Shown: one piece after another, positions 6,122 to 14,583 of the stretch | Layout of the letters: each line of letters opens with the position of its first letter | How positions within the stretch are numbered: the stretch's first letter is position 1 | IMG/VR virus record: IMGVR_UViG_3300028965_000054 | Location: 1 to 27,481 of that record | Length of the DNA stretch: 27,481 nt | Direction: 5' to 3' (one strand) | Origin: a virus | Taxonomy: Duplodnaviria > Heunggongvirae > Uroviricota > Caudoviricetes | The notes under the pieces: generated by a model | Told to the model about the DNA's origin: nothing | Databases searched by the model: none | The model's input: only the letters and a program-made list of their open reading frames with translations | Made by a program: the position numbers and the translations under genes

Positions 6122-6511
6122 ATGATTGACCGTCACGACTTCGTAAAATGGGTGCGCACACAGGACACCCGTCTGGCCCCAAAACTTCAGGCAATGTTTG
6201 ATTTTTATCTCCGTGCCCGCGCCAGCCGGGCACGCACCACAAAACCGGAGAACGCAGACACCCTTTATTTCACCGTGGACGACTGTTACCGCGTAGCTTT
6301 CACGCCACAAGGTCTGGCCCTGTACACCCTGACACCACACGGCGACTCCCTGCTGGCGTATTACAACTCCCCGGCCTCCGTATTTGCGGCAATGCTGGCG
6401 CATCGTACCGCTGGCGGGTGTGCCTCGCTGAGTGAATACACCACTGAATTTAACCGCCTTTCCGTCATCTTCTCGCAGGAGTGGCAGCGCGTGACGGGAT
6501 ACCAGCCATGA
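6122..6511 (+). CDS. Hypothetical protein, translationally coupled to gpA-like gene
   Basis: 129 aa; stop overlaps the gpA ATG (ATGA at 6508-6511). Confidence 0.6.
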   Translation: MIDRHDFVKWVRTQDTRLAPKLQAMFDFYLRARASRARTTKPENADTLYFTVDDCYRVAFTPQGLALYTLTPHGDSLLAYYNSPASVFAAMLAHRTAGGCASLSEYTTEFNRLSVIFSQEWQRVTGYQP

Positions 6512-9348
6512 GTGAGTTTGCATGGAGCTGGAATGAACCGCAGCCAGCTATTGATCCGGACGACTTCGCGAACTTCAGCCAGTTGCCAAAAACCGGACTG
6601 CAACGCGCCATTCGTTACTACTATGAGGCGGACAAAAAGGCTCAGGAAGAACAGGATGCGAAGGAAGAAGCCTTTTTCGCACAATCCGCCATGGGTAAAA
6701 AACTCATGGCATCCCTTGAGGAAGCCGGGCAACGCGAAAAACTGATAAAAAACATCATCAGTAAGCGCCAGGAAATAAAGCAAGACCCGGTGGCCTGCGC
6801 CTTTGCCGAACTGAAGGCACTTCCCGTTTATCTGCGAGACCCCCTGAGCCGCCGCCTCTCTTTTTTACGTAAGAAGCAGGAATCTGACCGCCAGAAAGGA
6901 AAAAACGCCAGGCTGGCAGAACGCTATGCACAAGGAACCCTGCTCAAAATATTCAAACGTCTGAAACGCACTGACGGACGCTGGCTGACACCGTGTTATT
7001 GCTCCCTTGCCGGACGCGAACGCCTGGACGATTTGCTTTACCTGCCGCAGCTCAACAAACACCAGATACAGACGCTGGCCACCATGACGGCGGCGATGTT
7101 CAGCAGCACTTTTGAAACACTCTGCGATAACTTTGGCGCGACCGATGGCGAGCTGACCATGAAAATTGCGCTGAAGGCGTATCAGATGCTGGCCCGCATG
7201 GCGTTACATCTGCACACCATGCCGCCGCATTACGAAGCACTGAGAACGGACAAAGACCGGAAGAACGCACCGAATACGGAGCTGCTGCCGGGTGCCATCC
7301 TTCGCCTGACCTGTGCGGAATGGTGGAAACACAAACTGTGGCTTTTACGTTGCGAGTGGCGGGAAGAACAACTCCGTGCCGCCTGTCTGGTTTCCAGAAA
7401 AACATCACCCTATCTGAGCCAGGACGCGTTAAGCGAGTTTCGCGCACAGCGCGAGAAAACACGCGATTTTCTGAAAAGTTTCATGCTGGAAAATGAAGAC
7501 GGGTTCACGATTGATCTCGAGACGGTGTATTACGCGGGAGTAAGTAACCCGGTTCACCGTAAGGCAGAAATGATGGCCACCATGAAGGGACTGGAACTTC
7601 TGGCCGAAGCCCGTGGCGACAGAGCGGTGTTTCTGACTGTCACCTGCCCGTCAAAATACCACGCAACAACGGAGAACGGTCATCCGAACCCCAAATGGAA
7701 CGGGGCCACCATGCGCGACTCCAGCGATTACCTGGTTAACACGTTTTTTGCGGCGGTCCGCAAAAAACTGAACCGCGACGGTCTGCGCTGGTATGGCATC
7801 CGCACGGTGGAGCCTCACCATGACGGCACTGTGCACTGGCATATGATGGTCTTTGCACATCCGGACGAGATTGAAACCATCGTGTCCCACGTCTGCGATA
7901 TTGCCATTCAGGAAGACCGCCACGAGCTGGGCGATGACATAACTCCGCGTTTTAAGGCGGAGTACGTAGACGGCTCAAAAGGCACACCAACCAGCTACAT
8001 CGCCACCTACATCGGAAAGAACCTGGACAGCCGCGCCGTGGATGGCATCGACCCGAAAACGGGCAAGCCACGCGTTGACCACGAAACCGGAAAATCAATG
8101 GCCGAGAGCGTGGAACGCGCCATCGGCTGGGCGCGCCTTCACCGGGTCCGCCAGTTCCAGTTCTTTGGTATCCCCTCCCGTCAGGTGTGGCGTGAACTGC
8201 GCCGCCTTGCCAGCCAGATGGCACGCAACCCGGAAGGCCCGCAACGGCTGAAGGATGACGCAATGGACGCGGTACTCGCTGCCGCTGATGCCGGATGTTT
8301 TGCCACCTACATTGAGAAACAGGGTGGCGTACTTGTTCCACGCAAAGACTACCTGATTCGCACCGCCTACGACCTCGCAGATGAGCTGAACGATTACGGT
8401 GAACAGAGCGTACAGATTTACGGGATCTGGTCGCCGCTCATTGGGGAGTCTTCCCGCGTATGCACGCATCCGGATAACTGGAAGCTGGTAAGACGCAAAC
8501 CGGAAGCGGAAGACAGCGCCCGCGAAAATGGTTTTGACCTTCAGGGCGGCCCTGCCGCCCCTTGGACTCGTGGCAATAACTGTCCCCGTGTACAGGAAAC
8601 GGACAACAACGGGACAGAACAGCCGGAAGAACGGCCAGCACCGTGGCCGCAGCTCCCTGACGGCGTTGAAGTGAACGAATGGATGCGCTCACTGAAACGG
8701 CACGAACGCCGGGCGCTGATGCGTTCGCTTCGTGACAAACAGGCAAAAAACAGCAGTGATGAAATGCAGAGCTGGACACAGAGCCGCAAACAGCAGCGGC
8801 CTTTGCCTGATAACCACGAATTACTCGCTAAAGAATGGCGGGAGTCTGCTGAATCTCTCGGCCTGCATATCGGTGAACAACAGATGCAGCACCTGTTACG
8901 GGGCGGCAGTCTGTGCGTTGACGGCAGCATCATTGCACCGCAGGGATTTGAAATTGTACGCAAACCGGATACCCGCCCGGACAGCCGAATCACGCAGCTC
9001 TGGCAGCGCCTGAGCCGTAATCACGGCGTAAGCAGCACGGAGATCCGCCATAACCCGGTCGCCAGCTATCTGGCACAGCTGGGGGAATCAGACCCCGAAG
9101 CCGCCGCACGCCTGGCATCCACACTTCAGCAGGACCAGAACACCATGAAAACACCCGTTACCGTACTTTCTGACATGCTGCGCGCCATCCGCGACGCAGA
9201 GCACGAACAGAGAATCAGTGAAACAACTGAACGCGCCCGCCGCAAAGCAGACCTGCTGCGGGGTGGCCTGACCAGTGGAAACAAAAAACAGACAAAAACG
9301 GGATTCACAAATCCCGTAAATGAGCAAAAAACGCGCCGCTATATATGA
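6508..9348 (+). CDS. Rolling-circle replication initiator (P2 gpA-like HUH endonuclease)
   Basis: 946 aa from ATG 6508 (track ORF begins upstream in frame). HUH-type motif GTVHWHMMVFAHP; size and position match P2/186 A. About 185 aa longer than P2 A as I recall it. Confidence 0.85.
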   Translation: MSEFAWSWNEPQPAIDPDDFANFSQLPKTGLQRAIRYYYEADKKAQEEQDAKEEAFFAQSAMGKKLMASLEEAGQREKLIKNIISKRQEIKQDPVACAFAELKALPVYLRDPLSRRLSFLRKKQESDRQKGKNARLAERYAQGTLLKIFKRLKRTDGRWLTPCYCSLAGRERLDDLLYLPQLNKHQIQTLATMTAAMFSSTFETLCDNFGATDGELTMKIALKAYQMLARMALHLHTMPPHYEALRTDKDRKNAPNTELLPGAILRLTCAEWWKHKLWLLRCEWREEQLRAACLVSRKTSPYLSQDALSEFRAQREKTRDFLKSFMLENEDGFTIDLETVYYAGVSNPVHRKAEMMATMKGLELLAEARGDRAVFLTVTCPSKYHATTENGHPNPKWNGATMRDSSDYLVNTFFAAVRKKLNRDGLRWYGIRTVEPHHDGTVHWHMMVFAHPDEIETIVSHVCDIAIQEDRHELGDDITPRFKAEYVDGSKGTPTSYIATYIGKNLDSRAVDGIDPKTGKPRVDHETGKSMAESVERAIGWARLHRVRQFQFFGIPSRQVWRELRRLASQMARNPEGPQRLKDDAMDAVLAAADAGCFATYIEKQGGVLVPRKDYLIRTAYDLADELNDYGEQSVQIYGIWSPLIGESSRVCTHPDNWKLVRRKPEAEDSARENGFDLQGGPAAPWTRGNNCPRVQETDNNGTEQPEERPAPWPQLPDGVEVNEWMRSLKRHERRALMRSLRDKQAKNSSDEMQSWTQSRKQQRPLPDNHELLAKEWRESAESLGLHIGEQQMQHLLRGGSLCVDGSIIAPQGFEIVRKPDTRPDSRITQLWQRLSRNHGVSSTEIRHNPVASYLAQLGESDPEAAARLASTLQQDQNTMKTPVTVLSDMLRAIRDAEHEQRISETTERARRKADLLRGGLTSGNKKQTKTGFTNPVNEQKTRRYI

Positions 9349-9390
9349 AGCGCGCATAAAACAGGCAAAAACGGGATTTCAGAATCCCGT
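9298..9390. repeat. Two identical-arm 20-bp palindromes (ACGGGATT-N4-AATCCCGT) 73 bp apart; candidate parC/ParR operator
   Basis: Copy 1 at 9298..9317 (inside gpA 3' end), copy 2 at 9371..9390, each in the context CAAAAACGGGATT...AATCCCGTAAA. GCGCGC-containing inverted repeat between them around the gpA stop. Confidence 0.6.
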
Positions 9391-9424
9391 AAACGATTAA
9401 TTAATCAACATAAGGAAAAGCGAC

Positions 9425-10384
9425 ATGAAAATTTGTATCGATGACGGCTCCACCAACATCAAGCTGGCATGGACTGAGAACGGCGAACGCCGCAACGCCA
9501 TCAGCCCGAACAGCTTCAAGTCGGAATGGTCTGCGCCGTTCGGTGGCACGCAGCCCGCGAACTACATGCTTGATGGTGTGCGCTATGGTTTTGATCCGGT
9601 CAGCGATCGCTTTGTCCAGACGACCGACACGCAATACCAGTACAGCGATGTGAATGTCATTGCCATTCATCACGCGCTGGTCAAATCAGGCATCACGCCA
9701 CAGGAGGTGGATGTGGTTGTCACCCTGCCACTGAGCGAGTATTTCGACACAAACGCACAGCCGGACATGGCCAACATCAACCGCAAAAAAGCGAACGTTA
9801 TGCGCCCGGTGGAGTACCAGAACGGCGAGACATTCACTATCCGTAACGTGCGGGTTATGCCTGAATCCATTCCGGCTGGCTTTAAAGCACTGGCTGACAT
9901 GAGTCCGTTTGAATCCCTGCTGATTGTGGATTTGGGCGGAACCACGCTGGATGTGGCAAAGGTTCAGGGGCAACTGGCAGGTATCAGCCAGGTGTTTTGC
10001 GATCCACACGTAGGCGTTTCTCTGATGGCCGATGCCGTGCTGTCGGTGATGGCCACCAACGGTATGCGCACCAGTCACCACATCGCCAATACCATTATCG
10101 AACATCGCCACGATGAAGCCTGGCTGCGCCAGCACATCCACAATGACACGCATTACGCCAGCCTGATGGCAGTTATTCGTGAAAAGGAGGAAACACTGAA
10201 ACAACGCGTGATCCGCGCGCTGGCGGGTTTTTCGGGTTACGGGCGGGTGATGGTTGTAGGTGGAGGAGCGGAGATTGTGGCACCCGCTATCCGCGAAGCC
10301 TGCGGAGTTAATGCGACTTTCATCGCGGACGGGGTGCCACAATTTGCTCTGGTTAATGGGCTGTACGCAATGGACAAGGAGTAA
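9425..10384 (+). CDS. parM: ParM/StbA-like actin-type partition ATPase
   Basis: 319 aa; N-terminus MKICIDDGSTNIKLAW...ISPNSFK...YSDVNVIAIHHAL closely parallels recalled plasmid R1 ParM (MLVFIDDGSTNIKLQW...ISPNSFK...YSDVNVVAVHHAL). AAGGA RBS. Confidence 0.88.
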   Translation: MKICIDDGSTNIKLAWTENGERRNAISPNSFKSEWSAPFGGTQPANYMLDGVRYGFDPVSDRFVQTTDTQYQYSDVNVIAIHHALVKSGITPQEVDVVVTLPLSEYFDTNAQPDMANINRKKANVMRPVEYQNGETFTIRNVRVMPESIPAGFKALADMSPFESLLIVDLGGTTLDVAKVQGQLAGISQVFCDPHVGVSLMADAVLSVMATNGMRTSHHIANTIIEHRHDEAWLRQHIHNDTHYASLMAVIREKEETLKQRVIRALAGFSGYGRVMVVGGGAEIVAPAIREACGVNATFIADGVPQFALVNGLYAMDKE

Positions 10385-10388
10385 ATCA

Positions 10389-10703
10389 ATGACGACACCA
10401 ACCAGACGGATAAGTTTCTATCTGAAGCCCGCCGTCGTCAAGAGCGAACGGGAGGCGTGCAGTTACCTCGACAGCCTGCCAGCCTCCGAACGCAGCCGCG
10501 CACAACGCGCGGCTTTTCTGGCTGGACTGGCTCTTATAAAACGCACCCCCGCGTTGGCGTATTCGCTGGCAGAATGGTCAGAAGACGAAATAAGGATGCC
10601 ACCGCTACCAGTACAGCCTGAAAAACCGGCGCAACCAGCAGCAGACAGCGCCCCCCATATGCAGCAGGTGAAAAAGAATATTCAGGCGTTTTTCCCGAAG
10701 TGA
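10389..10703 (+). CDS. parR: ParR/StbB-like centromere-binding protein
   Basis: 104 aa from ATG 10389 (AAGGAG RBS inside parM 3' end). RRISFYLKPAVV...YLDSLPASERSRAQRAAFLAGLAL parallels recalled R1 ParR (RTIAFKLNPDV...TLDSIPQGERSRLNRAALTAGLAL). Confidence 0.8.
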   Translation: MTTPTRRISFYLKPAVVKSEREACSYLDSLPASERSRAQRAAFLAGLALIKRTPALAYSLAEWSEDEIRMPPLPVQPEKPAQPAADSAPHMQQVKKNIQAFFPK

Positions 10704-10717
10704 AAACAGGAGTAACT

Positions 10718-11005
10718 ATGTCCACCATTACCAAAGAATGGTTACAACGTAAAATCACAGAGTTTAAATCGTGGCGCGAAGACATCCCGTTCGGTCTTGA
10801 TGAAGACGATCACAATATGTTAATCGCACTGGAAATCGCACTTGCATCACTGGAAGCAGAGCCAGTGGCATGGATGCACGCAAATAATCCTATTGGAATA
10901 CCGGCGATAACAAGAAGTAAAGATGTTGCAGACAGCTGGCGCTCTAAGGGATGGAATGTATTGCCTCTTTATTCACTGACCCGCTCCATCAATTTATGCC
11001 ATTAA
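10718..11005 (+). CDS. Hypothetical protein (AT-rich cargo)
   Basis: 95 aa from ATG 10718 with AGGAG RBS; region visibly lower in GC than flanking phage genes. Confidence 0.55.
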   Translation: MSTITKEWLQRKITEFKSWREDIPFGLDEDDHNMLIALEIALASLEAEPVAWMHANNPIGIPAITRSKDVADSWRSKGWNVLPLYSLTRSINLCH

Positions 11006-11016
11006 TGGAAGTAATC

Positions 11017-11376
11017 ATGATGAAAGATAATTCCGGAAGCCAGCGTGCATCAGTTGCAGTTATGGTAATGATTAAATTTGTGAAACAGTACACCGGAAAG
11101 CCAATCTCGCTCCGGCAATTAAGCAAAGAAACCGTTTCACTGTCATATCTGGAGCAAATATTCAGATATTTACGGGAAAGTAGCCTGGTAAAAGCCACAC
11201 GCGGCCCGGGTGGTGGATATATCCCAACAAAAGAAAATTACAGTGTTGGTGATATTGTCCGGGCAATGAAATGTTCCGGATTATATACACAGCACGTTAT
11301 TCTGGCTGCACTGGATAATATTTCTTTAACCAGCCTGCAGGAAGACACAAATTATCAGTTGTCTGCCATTGAATAA
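11017..11376 (+). CDS. Rrf2-family HTH transcriptional regulator, short form without Fe-S cysteine triad
   Basis: 119 aa; Rrf2 signature ISLRQLSKETVSLSYLEQIFRYLRESSLVKATRGPGGGY (compare recalled IscR [29 protein letters not shown]). Only one Cys. AT-rich. Confidence 0.75.
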   Translation: MMKDNSGSQRASVAVMVMIKFVKQYTGKPISLRQLSKETVSLSYLEQIFRYLRESSLVKATRGPGGGYIPTKENYSVGDIVRAMKCSGLYTQHVILAALDNISLTSLQEDTNYQLSAIE

Positions 11377-11382
11377 GAAAAC

Positions 11383-11423
11383 CCGGAACGGGTGCGCAAA
11401 TTCTTTGTGCGCCCGTTCCGGGT
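11383..11423 (-). terminator. Strong hairpin terminating the leftward late operon (P-Q-ogr)
   Basis: Near-perfect 19-bp inverted repeat CCCGGAACGGGTGCGCAAA / TTTGTGCGCCCGTTCCGGG. On the minus strand it is followed by a U-rich tract (TTTTCTTATTC). Confidence 0.6.
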
Positions 11424-11444
11424 TGGACAAGCGAAGCGCGTCAG

Positions 11445-11702
11445 CTATCCGGCCTGCAACAACTCCAGAGCCATTTGTTTTTCTTCCGGACGCATCCGCT
11501 CAATCAACAGCTTTAACACACCATTCTCCAGCCCGCTGGGCACCAGTGTGTGCGAGTAGGTCAGATTCATCACCCAGGTATGTCCGCACTCGAGACGGGT
11601 GCAACGGTAATACACATCAGCAAACAGATCGGTTTTCCAGGCTGTTTTCTCAATCACTGCATGTGCACCGCAGCAATGACATCGCGCTTTCTGTCTGCGC
11701 AT
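11445..11702 (-). CDS. ogr: Ogr/Delta-like zinc-finger late transcription activator
   Basis: 85 aa from ATG 11702..11700 with GGGAGGTGG RBS (track ORF begins further upstream). Cys spacing C-x2-C-x22-C-x4-C matches the Ogr/Delta zinc finger. Confidence 0.75.
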   Translation of the reverse strand: MRRQKARCHCCGAHAVIEKTAWKTDLFADVYYRCTRLECGHTWVMNLTYSHTLVPSGLENGVLKLLIERMRPEEKQMALELLQAG

Positions 11703-11767
11703 TTTCCACCTCCCGGAACAGCGTTTTACTGCCACCGATTTTACCCGCTCTTTCCCCATACCGCACA

Positions 11768-12802
11768 TCACTCCATGGGTTCATCAAAATCAAGAATAAA
11801 TTTCACCTCCCCCAGTCGTCTGATATCCGGGTCGCTGTTGATCCCCTCCATAATCAGGCGGCGCATCGGGATAACCTCATCCCTGTAATATGCCTCGCGG
11901 GATTTCAGTGGGTCACCAAGCCCGGCCGTATTTGCGGGAATGATGCCGGCAAGTCCGGGTGGAAAACGGTGCGCAACGAGCTGATCCTGGGCACTGATGG
12001 TTTTTATATTCAGGAACTCATCTTTTGTGCCTGAATCCCCGATAGGGATAACCTTAACCCCTTCCTTGTCTCCGCCAGCTATGTTGATAAACATGGACTT
12101 AAAATTGCCAGCACCTTTCGAGTTTTCAATCTCTTTACGAAATTCCGCCTCAAGCTCAGGCGTCATATTGGGATCAGTGGAATACAGGATATAACCCAGA
12201 TGCGCGCCGTTTTTGTAATATTTGCGGCGAAAGCGTGTGGCATCCACATTCAGCATCGCCGACTCCATCCCGTGGATATAATCCGGGACACCGTAAACCT
12301 GCTGTTGCGGGTCATAAATGGCCAAGAACACCACTTCGCCTGGCGGGTAAACGAGATCTTCCAGTGCCGCCTGCACAATCACCGTGCCCCCCTCGTTGTT
12401 ACGCCGCAGGTACAGCGACGGCAGTGTATGCAGGCGCACCACCCGACCGAAGCCATTGCGCACTTTAAGCAGCCCCATATCCCCGAATATCAGCAGATTG
12501 GTCACCGCTGCCGCCATGGCGGCGTGTGTCATACCACCACCACCCCGAAAACCCTGCATGATCATATTCACGCGCGCACGCAATACCGCGCCGTGATACG
12601 GCGCGATATTGGACAACATGGCGAGATCCATGCGCTCAATGGGCGGCGTGTACCAGCCGTTATAGCCATCCCAGAGCGAGCCGTAATAACAGCCCCATGC
12701 AGCGACCGGTTCCGGGTCACCAAATTCAATAAACGTCATTTTGCCGACTCCCTCTTTCATGACAACCTTATCTCTGACCGGGTGTTTTTTCTTTTTACTC
12801 AT
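11768..12802 (-). CDS. Q: Portal protein (P2 gpQ-like)
   Basis: 344 aa from MSKKKK. Shared blocks with recalled P2 Q: FRRKYYKNGAHLGYI vs FRRKYYENGAHAGYI, NFKSMF vs NFKNLF, IPIGDSGTKDEFLNIK vs IPLSEVATKDDFFNIK. Start overlaps terminase stop. Confidence 0.9.
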   Translation of the reverse strand: MSKKKKHPVRDKVVMKEGVGKMTFIEFGDPEPVAAWGCYYGSLWDGYNGWYTPPIERMDLAMLSNIAPYHGAVLRARVNMIMQGFRGGGGMTHAAMAAAVTNLLIFGDMGLLKVRNGFGRVVRLHTLPSLYLRRNNEGGTVIVQAALEDLVYPPGEVVFLAIYDPQQQVYGVPDYIHGMESAMLNVDATRFRRKYYKNGAHLGYILYSTDPNMTPELEAEFRKEIENSKGAGNFKSMFINIAGGDKEGVKVIPIGDSGTKDEFLNIKTISAQDQLVAHRFPPGLAGIIPANTAGLGDPLKSREAYYRDEVIPMRRLIMEGINSDPDIRRLGEVKFILDFDEPME

Positions 12803-14583
12803 GCAGGAAAGATCCATGTTGATTTGCGCTTGTGCTTATAGTTCAGGGGTTCGTTACTTGCTGCATGGGCGATGGCAAAGAAGATGTCAGCGTGCCCGGT
12901 TTCTTCGCTACGTTCAGCGGTAAAAGTAACTTTATTGCCACTGTTGGTGGATTCCTGACGGATGGCCAGAAATGATGCCGGAATATCTGTGGCTTCCTCA
13001 TCCCACTCAATACGGTTGGCGTAAATCAGATCCAGCATCTTCATCACCAGGCGGTTTTTGGATTCAACACTGTAATGAATGGCCACTGTTTCACGGCGGG
13101 CAAATCCCTGAACCAGCTCAAAGACACCATAGCCAAGCCCGGTAACATCAATGCCGATAAACGTCATGTTATAGCGCGCCTTAATGCTGCGGATACGCTC
13201 TGCCATAAACTGGAATGACATACTCCGCCAGTGGTGTTTTTCCAGCACGCGGAATCGTTCTGCCGCAACCAGCGGTGGTGCCAGCACCACAAACGTGGCG
13301 TTATCGCCGGAGCGCGCAGGGTCAAAGCCGCCCCACACTTCACGGTTTCCAAATGGCATGGCATCTTCCGGGTGAAAATCCTCCCACGTACTGATATCAA
13401 CGCCACAGCGCACGAGGTCATCGAATTTAAAGACGCTCTCTTTGTCATCCACAAACACGCACATAAACAGCATATTGAAGGCTGTTTCGTTGTACCGCTC
13501 GCGCAGTTCGTTGATGTCAGCAAGGTTAAAGCCGCCGGCAATGGCATCTTCCATTGTCACCACATAGCGCCACTGGCCATCCGGGCATTCGCGCCCGCCA
13601 TCGCGCAGCTCATCAAAGGACGGAAACTCAACCCCTTTTCGTTTCGGATCGCCTTTGCGCCATTCATCGCCAGACCAGAACGGATAGCCCTGATGGGTTT
13701 TGGTTGACGGCGTGGAGAAGTAGGTAATGCGCCAGTGCGAGTGGGTGGCCATACCGGACGCCACTTCATTGAGGCGACGAAAGCCGGGGATCCACAGATA
13801 TTCGTCAATGTACAGGTGGCCGCTGTTTGACTGCGCCGTGTTACTGTTGGTCGCCAGAAAATACAGTTCAGCCAGATTACTTAACTTAACCGGGTTGCCT
13901 TTAATGGGAATGCCAAATTCCGTCTGTGCAATCTTAACGATATAGGTGCGGAACACTTCGGCCTGACGTTTTGATGCCGATAAAAATATCTGTGTGTCGC
14001 CGGTTAATACCGCATCTTCGAACGCCTCAAACGCGAAGTAATACGTCGCCCCAATCTGGCGCGATTTAAGCAGGTTGCGTACACGACGGAATTTGTTTTC
14101 ACGCAGATGCAACTGATAAGCGAACAGTTTTTTGGTAAACGGCTCAAAACTCTCTGCTGTCAGCCCTGACACATCATTAGCTTTACGACGACGCTCTTTC
14201 TTATCCGCGTCTTTTTCTCCGCGCTCTTCTTTTCCATAACGGCCAGACCGGGGAATATCAGCCCCCATTCGTTCTATCTCGGCCATTCGTTCTGTGTGCT
14301 TGTTCCTGACCGACATCAGTTTGACGTGGTGGCCAATCAGGCGATCGAGTTCATCGTGCTCTTCCTGGGTTTTATGGTCACGCTCCGCCAGTACAGCGAG
14401 ACGCCGGGCGATGACATCCTCCACGCCCTCAGTATTAAGCTGTGTGTACCACTCAAACTTTGTCGCCCAGTAATAAACAATTCGCGGGCTGTTCAGTCCG
14501 AGCTTCTTTTGTATTTCTTTTGGGGTGTGCCTTTTCAGATAGAGTGATTTTGCTGCAGCAATCACTTCATCAGAGTACGCCAT
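12799..14583 (-). CDS. P: Terminase large (ATPase) subunit (P2 gpP-like)
   Basis: 594 aa; size and position (leftward, upstream of Q, divergent from O) match P2 P. Confidence 0.85.
   Translation of the reverse strand: MAYSDEVIAAAKSLYLKRHTPKEIQKKLGLNSPRIVYYWATKFEWYTQLNTEGVEDVIARRLAVLAERDHKTQEEHDELDRLIGHHVKLMSVRNKHTERMAEIERMGADIPRSGRYGKEERGEKDADKKERRRKANDVSGLTAESFEPFTKKLFAYQLHLRENKFRRVRNLLKSRQIGATYYFAFEAFEDAVLTGDTQIFLSASKRQAEVFRTYIVKIAQTEFGIPIKGNPVKLSNLAELYFLATNSNTAQSNSGHLYIDEYLWIPGFRRLNEVASGMATHSHWRITYFSTPSTKTHQGYPFWSGDEWRKGDPKRKGVEFPSFDELRDGGRECPDGQWRYVVTMEDAIAGGFNLADINELRERYNETAFNMLFMCVFVDDKESVFKFDDLVRCGVDISTWEDFHPEDAMPFGNREVWGGFDPARSGDNATFVVLAPPLVAAERFRVLEKHHWRSMSFQFMAERIRSIKARYNMTFIGIDVTGLGYGVFELVQGFARRETVAIHYSVESKNRLVMKMLDLIYANRIEWDEEATDIPASFLAIRQESTNSGNKVTFTAERSEETGHADIFFAIAHAASNEPLNYKHKRKSTWIFPA

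What the first reader, a model, noticed from the sequence alone, without database searches (positions are those of the whole stretch)
9298..9390. Paired 8-N4-8 palindromes bracketing the gpA stop codon and the parM promoter
Two palindromes with identical arms (ACGGGATT...AATCCCGT), centres 73 bp apart (about seven helical turns), one inside the gpA 3' end and one 35 bp before parM. A GCGCGC-type inverted repeat and a TATATA element lie between them. Most likely a parC centromere/ParR operator. On the minus strand each hairpin is followed by a U-run, so they could also act as tandem terminators for antisense transcription.
Basis: seen in the sequence. Interest (0 to 1): 0.5.

Follow-up and report, generated by a model that had tools for sequence, protein, structure and literature searches.

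The report
Likely prophage ParR-binding centromere palindromes
Two identical 20-bp palindromes just upstream of an actin-type partition operon (parM-parR) in a P2-like E. coli prophage are most likely the DNA site the ParR adaptor protein grips; this is an uncharacterised but fairly ordinary member of a known kind of plasmid "centromere".

Summary
ACGGGATT-N4-AATCCCGT occurs exactly at 9298-9317 and 9371-9390, with centres 73 bp apart (0.07 matches expected by chance). The two copies are the cores of a 42-nt direct repeat.

The window is a P88-like (Xuanwuvirus, P2-family) prophage ordered gpA, parM, parR, cargo, portal.

Evidence for a parC-like ParR site:
- It is the only repeat structure around parMR.
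- The segment 9284-9353 containing palindrome 1 persists whether the upstream or the downstream DNA is swapped.
- In about 96 distinct relatives the arms vary half as much as neutral sites, the loops vary freely, and the 73-bp spacing is kept.
- ParR's first 14 residues are almost invariant across relatives.
- A second clade of P2-like prophages (Serratia, Enterobacter, Lelliottia) has the same ISFYLKP strand and carries AAAAACGGGA half-sites in inverted orientation upstream of parM.
- No locus with another ParR type (about 45 examined) has CGGGA there.

Rivals are weakened. The homologue of the P2 ori nick site lies at 8554-8583. There is no Rfam match and no compensatory stem change. The minus-strand U-run and stem are degraded in many relatives. 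No convincing sigma-70 promoter was found between the palindromes.

Verdict: a probable, unproven type II centromere/operator with a dyad architecture. Moderate interest.

The parts
9298..9317 (.). Palindrome 1 (ACGGGATT-CACA-AATCCCGT): two inverted CGGGATT half-sites, inside the last 17 codons of the gpA-like ORF
   Evidence: In 96 relatives the arms have low diversity apart from position 9304.
9371..9390 (.). Palindrome 2 (ACGGGATT-TCAG-AATCCCGT), ending 34 nt upstream of the parM start codon
   Evidence: The loop is hypervariable (pi 0.245) and the arm cores are conserved.
9282..9323 (+). 42-nt repeat unit 1: CAAAAAACAGACAAAAAC, then palindrome 1, then AAATGA. Homology to relatives that have a different upstream gene resumes at 9284.
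   Evidence: family D1; junction in L035 and L306.
9355..9396 (+). 42-nt repeat unit 2, 83% identical to unit 1
   Evidence: One metagenome variant (L368) has the two units collapsed into one.
9318..9332 (+). AAATGAGCAAAAAAC, the most conserved stretch of the region (pi 0.008), and a third copy of the GCAAAAA(A)CG motif
   Evidence: (family D4). GAGCAAAAAACG is also present in clade S locus L258.
9332..9354 (.). Central short GC dyad (CGCGC ... GCGCG) enclosing TATATA and the gpA stop codon (TGA, 9346-9348)
   Evidence: Clade S loci also have a GCC..GGC dyad between their inverted half-sites.
9397..9419 (+). Nearly invariant TTAATTAATCAACATAAGGAAAA: an AT-rich palindrome followed by the parM ribosome-binding site (AAGGA, 9412-9416)
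9425..10384 (+). parM, an actin-like segregation ATPase of 319 aa
   Evidence: Pfam StbA_N at 1.5e-82 and the ParM C-terminal domain at 2.6e-68. It is under strong purifying selection: pi 0.009 at codon positions 1 and 2 against 0.084 at 4-fold sites.
10389..10703 (+). parR, a ribbon-helix-helix adaptor of 104 aa that starts MTTPTRRISFYLKP
   Evidence: Pfam Plasmid_stab_B at 4e-24. Residues 6-62 match the pB171 ParR/StbB structure 2JD3 (E = 0.009). The N-terminal strand is almost invariant in relatives.
6481..9348 (+). gpA-like replication endonuclease ORF whose last codons read through palindrome 1

Best explanation
The two palindromes, with their A-rich flanks, are the cis-acting centromere-like site (parC) of a type II ParMRC partition module carried by a P88-like, P2-family prophage.

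Inferred mechanism:
- ParR is a ribbon-helix-helix dimer. It reads CGGGATT-type half-sites with its N-terminal beta-strand (TRRISFYL).
- Each 20-bp palindrome offers two inverted half-sites 12 bp apart, centre to centre, so each should seat a dimer of dimers.
- The two palindromes lie 73 bp apart, about seven helical turns, so they sit on the same face of the DNA.
- Flanking A-tracts may help the DNA bend into one ParR-DNA complex that captures the ends of ParM filaments.
- The same complex may also act as an operator for parMR expression.

Shown here: the sequence anatomy, its linkage to the parMR module, selective constraint on the arms, and the association of the half-site motif with one type of ParR beta-strand.

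Inferred only: ParR binding, stoichiometry, DNA bending, any promoter control, and when in the phage life cycle the system acts.
For: 1. The genes are a bona fide parM-parR pair. Pfam gives StbA_N plus the ParM C-terminal domain, and Plasmid_stab_B. ParR residues 6-62 match the RHH ParR of pB171, 2JD3.

2. ParM is under strong purifying selection: pi 0.009 at codon positions 1 and 2 against 0.084 at 4-fold sites. The system is therefore probably in use and needs a cis site.

3. The 42-nt repeat pair is the top direct-repeat family around parMR, and 8800-12000 holds no tandem repeat or iteron array.

4. The site sits directly upstream of parM, the position where clusters of short repeats lie in the plasmid-type loci whose upstream regions were printed.

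5. In L035 and L306 the upstream gene differs, and homology to the window resumes at 9284, the first bases of repeat unit 1. Palindrome 1 therefore stays with parMR when the upstream gene is exchanged.

6. Among 96 distinct P88-like sequences the half-site cores have pi 0.041 against 0.084 at 4-fold sites (P = 0.008). The loops have pi 0.166.

7. The 73-bp spacing is kept in 50 of 52 IMG/VR variants and nearly all metagenome variants.

8. ParR residues 1-14 are almost invariant, while the rest of ParR ranges from 46 to 93% identity.

9. A separate clade of P2-like prophages in Serratia, Enterobacter and Lelliottia has 58% ParM identity and the ParR strand (N)RKISFYLKP. Upstream of parM it carries AAAAACGGGAAC ... 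GTTCCCAAAAAC as inverted half-sites and shares the 10-mer AAAAACGGGA with both palindromes here.

10. CGGGA/TCCCG occurs upstream of parM in all loci with an ISFYLKP-type ParR and in none of about 45 loci with other ParR strands.

11. [quoted passage not shown]
Against:
- The architecture is not the array of about 10-11-bp repeat units flanking a promoter, seen by eye in most of the plasmid-type loci printed.
- No convincing promoter was found between the palindromes.
- The motif-ParR association rests on only two clades, so it amounts to two evolutionary observations. Further scans of phages, viral contigs and metagenomes found no third clade.
- In clade S the inverted half-sites are about 54 bp apart rather than 4 bp, so the geometry is not conserved.
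- Which bases ParR contacts is unresolved. It could be the AAAAAC tracts, the CGGGA cores, or both. R1-type iterons are also AAAAC-rich.
- Palindrome 1 is retained in a relative that has lost parMR (L339). There the retention is explained by its lying inside the gpA ORF.
- Nearly all copies are chromosomally integrated: 1442 places against 2 on plasmids. What a partition site does there is unclear.
Confidence: 0.6

Rival explanations
1. Minus-strand RNA elements. Each hairpin plus U-run would be an intrinsic terminator for antisense transcription. Palindrome 1 could also be the terminator of a short (about 50 nt) antisense RNA started from a weak minus-strand promoter between the palindromes.
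For: - Both hairpins pass the terminator-like scan on the minus strand: 8-bp stems followed by TTTTG.
- Hairpin-plus-T-run shapes on the minus strand also occur upstream of parM in Serratia locus L206, with unrelated stem sequences.
- Six of the nine substitution types seen in palindrome 1 remain G.U-compatible on the minus strand; two more combine those same changes.
- A weak minus-strand promoter-like site, TTGCCT-17-TATATA at 9368..9340, scores 6.4 bits. Its predicted transcript would begin in the invariant 9318-9332 stretch.
Against: - Most relatives have TTCTGTCT rather than a U-run after palindrome 1.
- The commonest palindrome 2 variants put C.A mismatches into the minus-strand stem (dG -3.3) while staying paired on the plus strand, so no single strand is consistently favoured.
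- No stem pair shows a compensatory double change.
- The proposed -35 and -10 vary in relatives: position 9367 has pi 0.30 and 9340/9342 have 0.14/0.21.
- The consensus scan found no minus-strand promoter in 8800-12200.
- In other clade S loci the small hairpins lose pairing or lack the T-run.
- There is no Rfam match.
Confidence: 0.1
2. Plus-strand mRNA structure. The hairpins, or the long-range pairing of the two palindromes, would fold in the gpA-parM transcript and act in mRNA processing or stability, or in controlling parM translation.
For: - There is no plus-strand terminator between gpA and parM, so the region is probably transcribed as part of the early operon.
- The 155-nt region folds far better than shuffles on the plus strand (z = -5.2).
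- Common palindrome 2 variants (A to G at arm position 1, C to T at position 6 of the right arm) keep G.U pairs on the plus strand.
Against: - The strong z-score follows automatically from two identical palindromes and is equally strong on the minus strand (z = -4.8).
- Frequent palindrome 1 variants (T to C at 9304, present in about a third of sequences) make C.A mismatches on the plus strand.
- There are no compensatory changes.
- The hairpins do not sequester the ribosome-binding site, which lies 22 nt downstream of palindrome 2.
- There is no Rfam match.
Confidence: 0.08
3. The palindromes bind a protein other than ParR, for example gpA as an accessory origin element, another phage regulator, or a host factor.
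For: - Palindrome 1 lies within the gpA ORF and is retained in a parMR-less relative (L339).
- HUH initiators often use inverted repeats near origins (general knowledge).
Against: - The positional homologue of the annotated P2 ori nick site is at 8554-8583, about 730 bp upstream (GCCGCCCCTTGGACTCGTGGCAATAACTGT against P2 GCCGCGCCTCGGAG^TCCTGTCAATAACTGT).
- Palindrome 1 stays with parMR when the upstream gene is replaced.
- The downstream Rrf2-like regulator is not part of the conserved module, since the cargo differs in P88 itself.
- The half-site motif tracks the ParR beta-strand type.
Confidence: 0.1
4. The palindromes are a non-functional relic of a local 73-bp duplication or of recombination at a module junction.
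For: - The two units are a direct duplication, and they can recombine. One variant has them collapsed into a single copy (L368).
- Junctions of mosaic exchange lie on either side of the 9284-9353 segment that contains palindrome 1.
Against: - The arms are about twice as conserved as 4-fold sites while the loops drift.
- The spacing is fixed at 73 bp in nearly all of more than 100 variants.
- A related half-site arrangement exists in a distant clade.
Confidence: 0.05

Closest known systems
parC of plasmid R1 (ParMRC, type II partition)
   Same: - It lies immediately upstream of parM-parR.
- ParR belongs to the same Pfam family (PF10784), with a similar N-terminal strand (R1 RRTIAFKLNP against TRRISFYLKP here).
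- The repeats fall into two groups either side of a central region.
- The repeat units are A/C-rich (AAAAC...) (loci L227-229).
   Different: - From established knowledge, R1 has ten 11-bp direct iterons (5 + 5) flanking a defined promoter.
- Here there are two 20-bp perfect palindromes (four inverted half-sites) 73 bp apart.
- There is no tandem array and no recognisable promoter.
- The site overlaps the 3' end of the upstream gene.
- The element is an integrated phage, not a plasmid.
srpC of SXT/R391 integrative conjugative elements (srpMRC)
   Same: - It is a type II partition module in a chromosomally integrating element.
- Its centromere-like site upstream of the ParM-like gene is made of four repeats in direct and inverted orientation, bound by the adaptor in EMSA (PMC4489591).
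   Different: - SrpR has no detectable similarity to ParR proteins, whereas ParR here is a clear PF10784 member.
- The repeat sequence and length (13 bp) differ.
- srpC has experimental support and this site has none.
ParR/StbB of pB171 (PDB 2JD3) and its parC
   Same: This is the only solved structure that matches this ParR (E = 0.009, residues 6-62). It is a ribbon-helix-helix dimer that reads repeats upstream of parM.
   Different: Sequence similarity is low, the C-terminal part here is shorter, and the DNA repeats are unrelated.
AlpAC/alpS of the Corynebacterium glutamicum prophage CGP3
   Same: It is a prophage-encoded actin-like filament plus a DNA-binding adaptor that acts on specific phage DNA sites (PMC5539076, abstract). 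It is a functional analogy for why a phage would carry such a system.
   Different: The proteins and sites are unrelated, the host phylum differs, and no homology was tested here.
parH of TP228 (ParG, RHH, type Ib)
   Same: It is an RHH centromere-binding protein that reads short boxes separated by AT-rich spacers (PMC3130281, abstract).
   Different: It uses a ParA-type motor, not ParM. Its tetramer boxes are arranged in a long array.

Membership tests
Type II partition centromere (parC of ParMRC systems) | Cis site adjacent to, and usually upstream of, a parM-parR operon | tested here: met
   The palindromes lie 127 to 35 nt upstream of the parM ATG. parM and parR were identified by Pfam.
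Type II partition centromere (parC of ParMRC systems) | The cognate adaptor is a ParR-type ribbon-helix-helix DNA-binding protein | tested here: met
   PF10784 at E = 4e-24. Residues 6-62 match pB171 ParR, 2JD3.
Type II partition centromere (parC of ParMRC systems) | Multiple repeated binding elements | tested here: met
   There are four CGGGATT half-sites in two 42-nt repeats, against 0.07 matches expected by chance.
Type II partition centromere (parC of ParMRC systems) | Canonical form: an array of 10-11-bp (or 20-bp) direct iterons in two clusters | tested here: not met
   Tandem Repeats Finder finds nothing in 8800-12000. By eye, most of the plasmid-type loci printed show clusters of about 10-11-bp repeat units on either side of a central region; no repeat-finding tool was run on them. 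Some plasmid loci also use inverted copies (L207, L244).
Type II partition centromere (parC of ParMRC systems) | The repeats overlap or flank the parMR promoter, giving autoregulation | tested here: inconclusive
   The consensus scan finds no sigma-70-like site here, and the best plus-strand PWM hits are about 5 bits. Co-transcription with gpA is possible.
Type II partition centromere (parC of ParMRC systems) | The repeat sequence tracks the DNA-reading residues of the cognate ParR across lineages | tested here: met
   CGGGA half-sites occur only where ParR has the ISFYLKP strand, that is in the P88-like clade and clade S. They occur in 0 of about 45 other loci. Only two independent clades support this.
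Type II partition centromere (parC of ParMRC systems) | Bound by ParR in vitro or in vivo, and stabilises a replicon in cis | not testable with these tools
   This needs EMSA or footprinting and a plasmid-loss assay.
Intrinsic (Rho-independent) terminator, minus strand | GC-containing stem-loop immediately followed by a U-run | tested here: met
   Both hairpins are listed by the scan in this window.
Intrinsic (Rho-independent) terminator, minus strand | Stem pairing and U-run maintained among relatives | tested here: not met
   The majority tail after palindrome 1 is TTCTGTCT. Palindrome 2 variants reach dG -3.3 on the minus strand. There are no compensatory changes.
Intrinsic (Rho-independent) terminator, minus strand | A transcription unit reading into it | tested here: inconclusive
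   The consensus scan finds no minus-strand promoter in 8800-12200. There is only a weak, unconserved PWM hit. Read-through from the late portal/terminase operon cannot be excluded.
P2-type replication origin (gpA nick site) | Sequence and positional homology to the P2 ori nick site inside gene A | tested here: not met
   The homologous site is at 8554-8583, not at the palindromes.
Any curated RNA family (Rfam 15) | Covariance-model match | tested here: not met
   The only hit is a chance-level one (rpsB sRNA, 13 bits against a gathering score of 40, E = 3.7) at 9232-9289.

The most novel reading that the evidence does not exclude
The palindromes may be the centromere of a partition machine that works on the phage genome itself rather than on a plasmid.

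In this reading parMR is co-transcribed with the cis-acting replication gene gpA, and its centromere is embedded in the end of gpA. ParR-ParM filaments would then separate or position replicating or transiently episomal P2-like genomes after induction or infection, or maintain a carrier state.

This would hold in a prophage family present in about a quarter of complete E. coli genomes. The site might also have a second role on the minus strand, as the terminator of a short antisense RNA.
Probability: 0.15. Interest if true: 0.6.

Novelty: new member of a known kind. Interest (0 to 1): 0.35.

Why it matters
If ParR binds these palindromes, they define the centromere of a ParMRC system that sits in integrated P2-like prophages of about 24% of complete E. 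coli genomes, and in relatives in Serratia, Enterobacter and Lelliottia.

Why an integrating phage keeps an actin-type partition system under purifying selection is not explained. A mapped cis site is the handle needed to test it, through ChIP, fluorescent tagging of phage DNA, or incompatibility with plasmids that carry related parC sites.

The site would also show that a PF10784-type ParR can use a few widely spaced dyads instead of a long iteron array.

As a sequence feature, though, it is what one expects upstream of parM, so it is not a surprise to a specialist.

Tried and rejected
- **Origin of replication.** Rejected. The homologue of the P2 nick site is at 8554-8583. My first pattern search for the P2 nick sequence found nothing at 3 mismatches or fewer. 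The site was then located through the protein alignment.

- **Known RNA family.** None found.

- **RNA hairpin covariation.** All arm variants are single-sided and no strand is consistently favoured.

- **Promoter search.** Nothing convincing on the plus strand.

- **Other centromere candidates near parMR.** There are no tandem arrays or other repeat families.

- **Operator for the Rrf2-like downstream gene.** Rejected, because that cargo gene is absent from P88 and other relatives that keep the palindromes.

- **Search for a third ParR clade with the ISFYLKP strand.** The phage database, IMG/VR and metagenomes gave only P88-like and clade S loci.

- **Exact-pattern scan of viral contigs.** It returned mostly P88-like loci plus single hits in unrelated contigs, which I take to be chance matches for 14 specified bases; I did not inspect them. 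It was uninformative.

- **Literature.** The P88 genome paper does not mention ParM. The original P2 ori paper is not held. An earlier version of it was contaminated by non-P88 loci and is not used.
Full report
**What is in the sequence**

The two palindromes are exactly as reported. ACGGGATT-CACA-AATCCCGT lies at 9298-9317 and ACGGGATT-TCAG-AATCCCGT at 9371-9390, with centres 73 bp apart. Allowing 3 mismatches, 0.07 matches are expected in the window and none of 100 shuffles gave three.

They are the cores of a longer 42-nt direct repeat, 9282-9323 and 9355-9396, 83% identical. Each unit reads CA(A/T)AAAACAG(A/G)CAAAAAC, then the palindrome, then AAA(T/C)GA.

Between the units lie:
- AAATGAGCAAAAAAC (9318-9332);
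- a 5-bp GC dyad, CGCGC at 9332-9336 and GCGCG at 9350-9354;
- TATATA (9340-9345);
- the stop codon of the upstream ORF (TGA, 9346-9348).

Because the arms are identical, the two palindromes can also pair with each other. That long-range pairing dominates the predicted single-strand folds on both strands (z = -4.8 and -5.2).

**Context**

The window is a P88-like (Xuanwuvirus, Peduoviridae, P2-family) prophage. The relevant genes are:

| Coordinates | Gene | Evidence |
|---|---|---|
| 6481..9348 | P2 gpA-type replication endonuclease | Pfam Phage_GPA, 6e-128 |
| 9425..10384 | ParM | Pfam StbA_N plus ParM C-terminal domain |
| 10389..10703 | ParR/StbB-type protein, 104 aa | PF10784 |

ParR residues 6-62 match the ribbon-helix-helix ParR of pB171 (PDB 2JD3, E = 0.009). 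Variable cargo follows, an Rrf2-like ORF in this window, and then the portal and terminase genes on the other strand.

The module is present in 1304 of 5426 complete E. coli genomes. Of the places found, 1442 are chromosomal and 2 are on plasmids.

**Is it tied to parMR or to gpA?**

Two natural mosaics bracket the segment.

- In L035 and L306, gpA ends earlier and a different 155-aa ORF follows. Nucleotide homology to the window resumes at 9284, the first bases of repeat unit 1, and that ORF reads through palindrome 1 to the same stop.
- In L339, parMR has been replaced by another gene and homology stops just after the gpA stop, at about 9353. Palindrome 1 is kept and palindrome 2 is lost.

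So 9284-9353 survives exchanges on either side. Palindrome 1 stays with parMR when the upstream gene changes. Its retention in L339 is explained by its position inside the ORF.

The gpA tail it encodes takes non-synonymous changes, for example F/L at 9304 and K/E at 9295. Coding constraint therefore does not explain the conservation.

**Selection**

Nucleotide diversity in 96 distinct P88-like sequences:

| Sites | pi |
|---|---|
| parM 4-fold degenerate sites | 0.084 |
| parM codon positions 1 and 2 | 0.009 |
| The 28 half-site core positions | 0.041 (P = 0.008 against random 4-fold sets) |
| The two loops | 0.166 |
| AAATGAGCAAAAAAC (9318-9332) | 0.008 |

TTAATTAA plus the ribosome-binding site is almost invariant.

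Spacing is 73 bp in 50 of 52 IMG/VR variants, and in all but a few metagenome variants.

Arm variation is concentrated at three positions (9304, 9371, 9388). It consists of single-sided transitions, and no pair changes on both sides in a compensatory way. Palindrome 1 variants stay wobble-paired only on the minus strand, while the common palindrome 2 variants stay wobble-paired only on the plus strand. This pattern fits a double-stranded DNA site that tolerates purine-purine or pyrimidine-pyrimidine swaps better than it fits an RNA hairpin on either strand.

**Link to ParR**

Across P88-like elements the first 14 ParR residues (MTTPTRRISFYLKP) are almost invariant. This stretch contains the RHH beta-strand, which in this fold contacts the major groove (established knowledge for RHH proteins). 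The rest of ParR ranges from 46 to 93% identity.

In the ParM-based scan of one genome per species, most of the plasmid-type loci whose upstream regions I printed showed, by eye, two clusters of about 10-11-bp repeat units upstream of parM. Their sequences differ with the ParR strand. For R1-type ParR (RRTIAFKLNP) they are AAAACCC-type iterons.

Only one other clade has the ISFYLKP strand. These are P2-like prophages of Serratia, Enterobacter and Lelliottia with the same gene order: gpA, sometimes a methyltransferase, parM, parR, cargo, portal. Their ParM identity to the window is 58%.

Their parM upstream regions are otherwise unalignable with P88. They nevertheless contain AAAAACGGGAAC-GAwATAGAAAAA, then about 30 nt with a GCC..GGC dyad, then TTTTTCTrTTTyGTTCCC-AAAAAC. 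That gives inverted CGGGAAC/GTTCCC half-sites, and the 10-mer AAAAACGGGA is shared with both P88 palindromes.

CGGGA/TCCCG occurs 3-4 times in P88-like upstream regions and once in clade S. It occurs in none of about 45 loci with other ParR strands. The inferred DNA-facing strand residues are T/R/S/Y in P88 and N/K/S/Y in clade S. This matches a shared core (ACGGGA) with different neighbouring bases (TT against AC). It is suggestive co-variation, but it rests on two clades only.

**Rivals**

- Replication origin. The annotated P2 nick site (GCCGCGCCTCGGAG^TCCTGTCAATAACTGT) aligns, through the gpA protein alignment, to window 8554-8583 (GCCGCCCCTTGGACTCGTGGCAATAACTGT). That is about 730 bp upstream of the palindromes.

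- Minus-strand terminators or antisense RNA. This window fits, and a weak TTGCCT-17-TATATA minus-strand site lies between the palindromes. The U-run, the stem and the putative promoter hexamers are all degraded in many relatives. The consensus scan sees no minus-strand promoter.

- Plus-strand mRNA structure. It is not supported by covariation and does not occlude the ribosome-binding site.

- Known RNA families. None match.

- Other centromere candidates. No other repeat array exists near parMR.

**What remains unknown**

- No sigma-70-like promoter could be placed between or after the palindromes, and there is no plus-strand terminator after gpA. parMR may be expressed with the early lytic operon.
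- Which bases ParR touches (A-tracts, CGGGA cores, or the invariant 9318-9332 stretch) cannot be resolved in silico.
- The biological role of a partition system in an integrating phage is open. Precedents are srpMRC of the SXT/R391 elements, whose centromere has four direct and inverted 13-bp repeats bound by SrpR (PMC4489591), and AlpAC of prophage CGP3 (PMC5539076).
- One E. coli assembly carries a complete P88-like genome as a 34.4-kb circular 'plasmid'.

**Verdict**

The interpretation as a parC-like ParR site is the best-supported reading (about 0.6) but is unproven. The promoter and terminator sub-claims are not supported.

It is a new, uncharacterised member of a known kind of element. 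It has a dyad architecture rather than an iteron array, and inverted repeat copies also occur in other parC regions (L207 and L244). Interest is moderate to low.

Noticed in passing
window 10389-10703 (parR); breakpoint near 10541: Among elements whose ParM is 98-99% identical, ParR is mosaic. Residues 1-14 are almost invariant. The helical part comes in at least two types, and the C-terminal linker ranges from 46 to 93% identity. Only the last motif (NIxAxFPx) is kept. Homology to L035 ends inside parR.
   Followed up: partly
window 8554-8583: This is the likely replication origin (gpA nick site) of the prophage. GCCGCCCCTTGGACTCGTGGCAATAACTGT is the positional homologue of the annotated P2 ori nick sequence inside gene A.
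   Followed up: yes
L339 3501-3700 (E. coli CUVET19-1704 chromosome): A P88-like prophage that lacks parMR. Homology ends just after the gpA stop (window about 9353). Palindrome 1 is kept, palindrome 2 is gone, and an ead/Ea22-like gene follows.
   Followed up: yes
L368 about 1430-1536 (metagenome contig ERZ894188.8): A natural variant in which the two 42-nt repeats have recombined into one. The 73 bp between them are deleted, leaving a single palindrome upstream of parM.
   Followed up: partly
window 9200-10500; E. coli genome collection: The gpA-end/parM/parR segment occurs in 1304 of 5426 complete E. coli genomes. Of the places found, 1442 are on chromosomes and 2 on plasmids. NZ_CP148288.1 is an entire P88-like genome, integrase included, deposited as a 34.4-kb circular plasmid.
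   Followed up: partly
window 11380-11424: A strong hairpin (21-nt arms, 90% complementary, 3-nt loop) lies right after the Rrf2-like ORF 10951..11376. It also scores as a minus-strand terminator-like site.
   Followed up: no
window 9340-9368, minus strand: A weak promoter-like site, TTGCCT-17-TATATA, points towards gpA. It would give an antisense RNA of about 50 nt ending at the palindrome 1 hairpin. The hexamers are not conserved in relatives.
   Followed up: partly
window 10700-12034; L336 3272-5402; L337 3006-4421: The slot between parR and the portal gene holds variable cargo. Here it is an Rrf2-like regulator and unknown ORFs. In the Serratia/Enterobacter/Lelliottia clade it holds SIR2 plus DUF87/FtsK-like genes or a Fic protein, which may be defence cargo.
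   Followed up: no
window 13904-13923: A third, 3-mismatch match to the palindrome pattern (ATGGGAATGCCAAATTCCGT) lies inside the large terminase gene. It is not itself a palindrome and is probably chance.
   Followed up: no
window 8600-9348: The C-terminal 250 aa or so of this gpA has no nucleotide similarity to gpA genes of other P2-like phages. In L035 the corresponding region is a separate 155-aa ORF after a 783-aa gpA. This suggests a gene fusion in the P88 lineage.
   Followed up: partly
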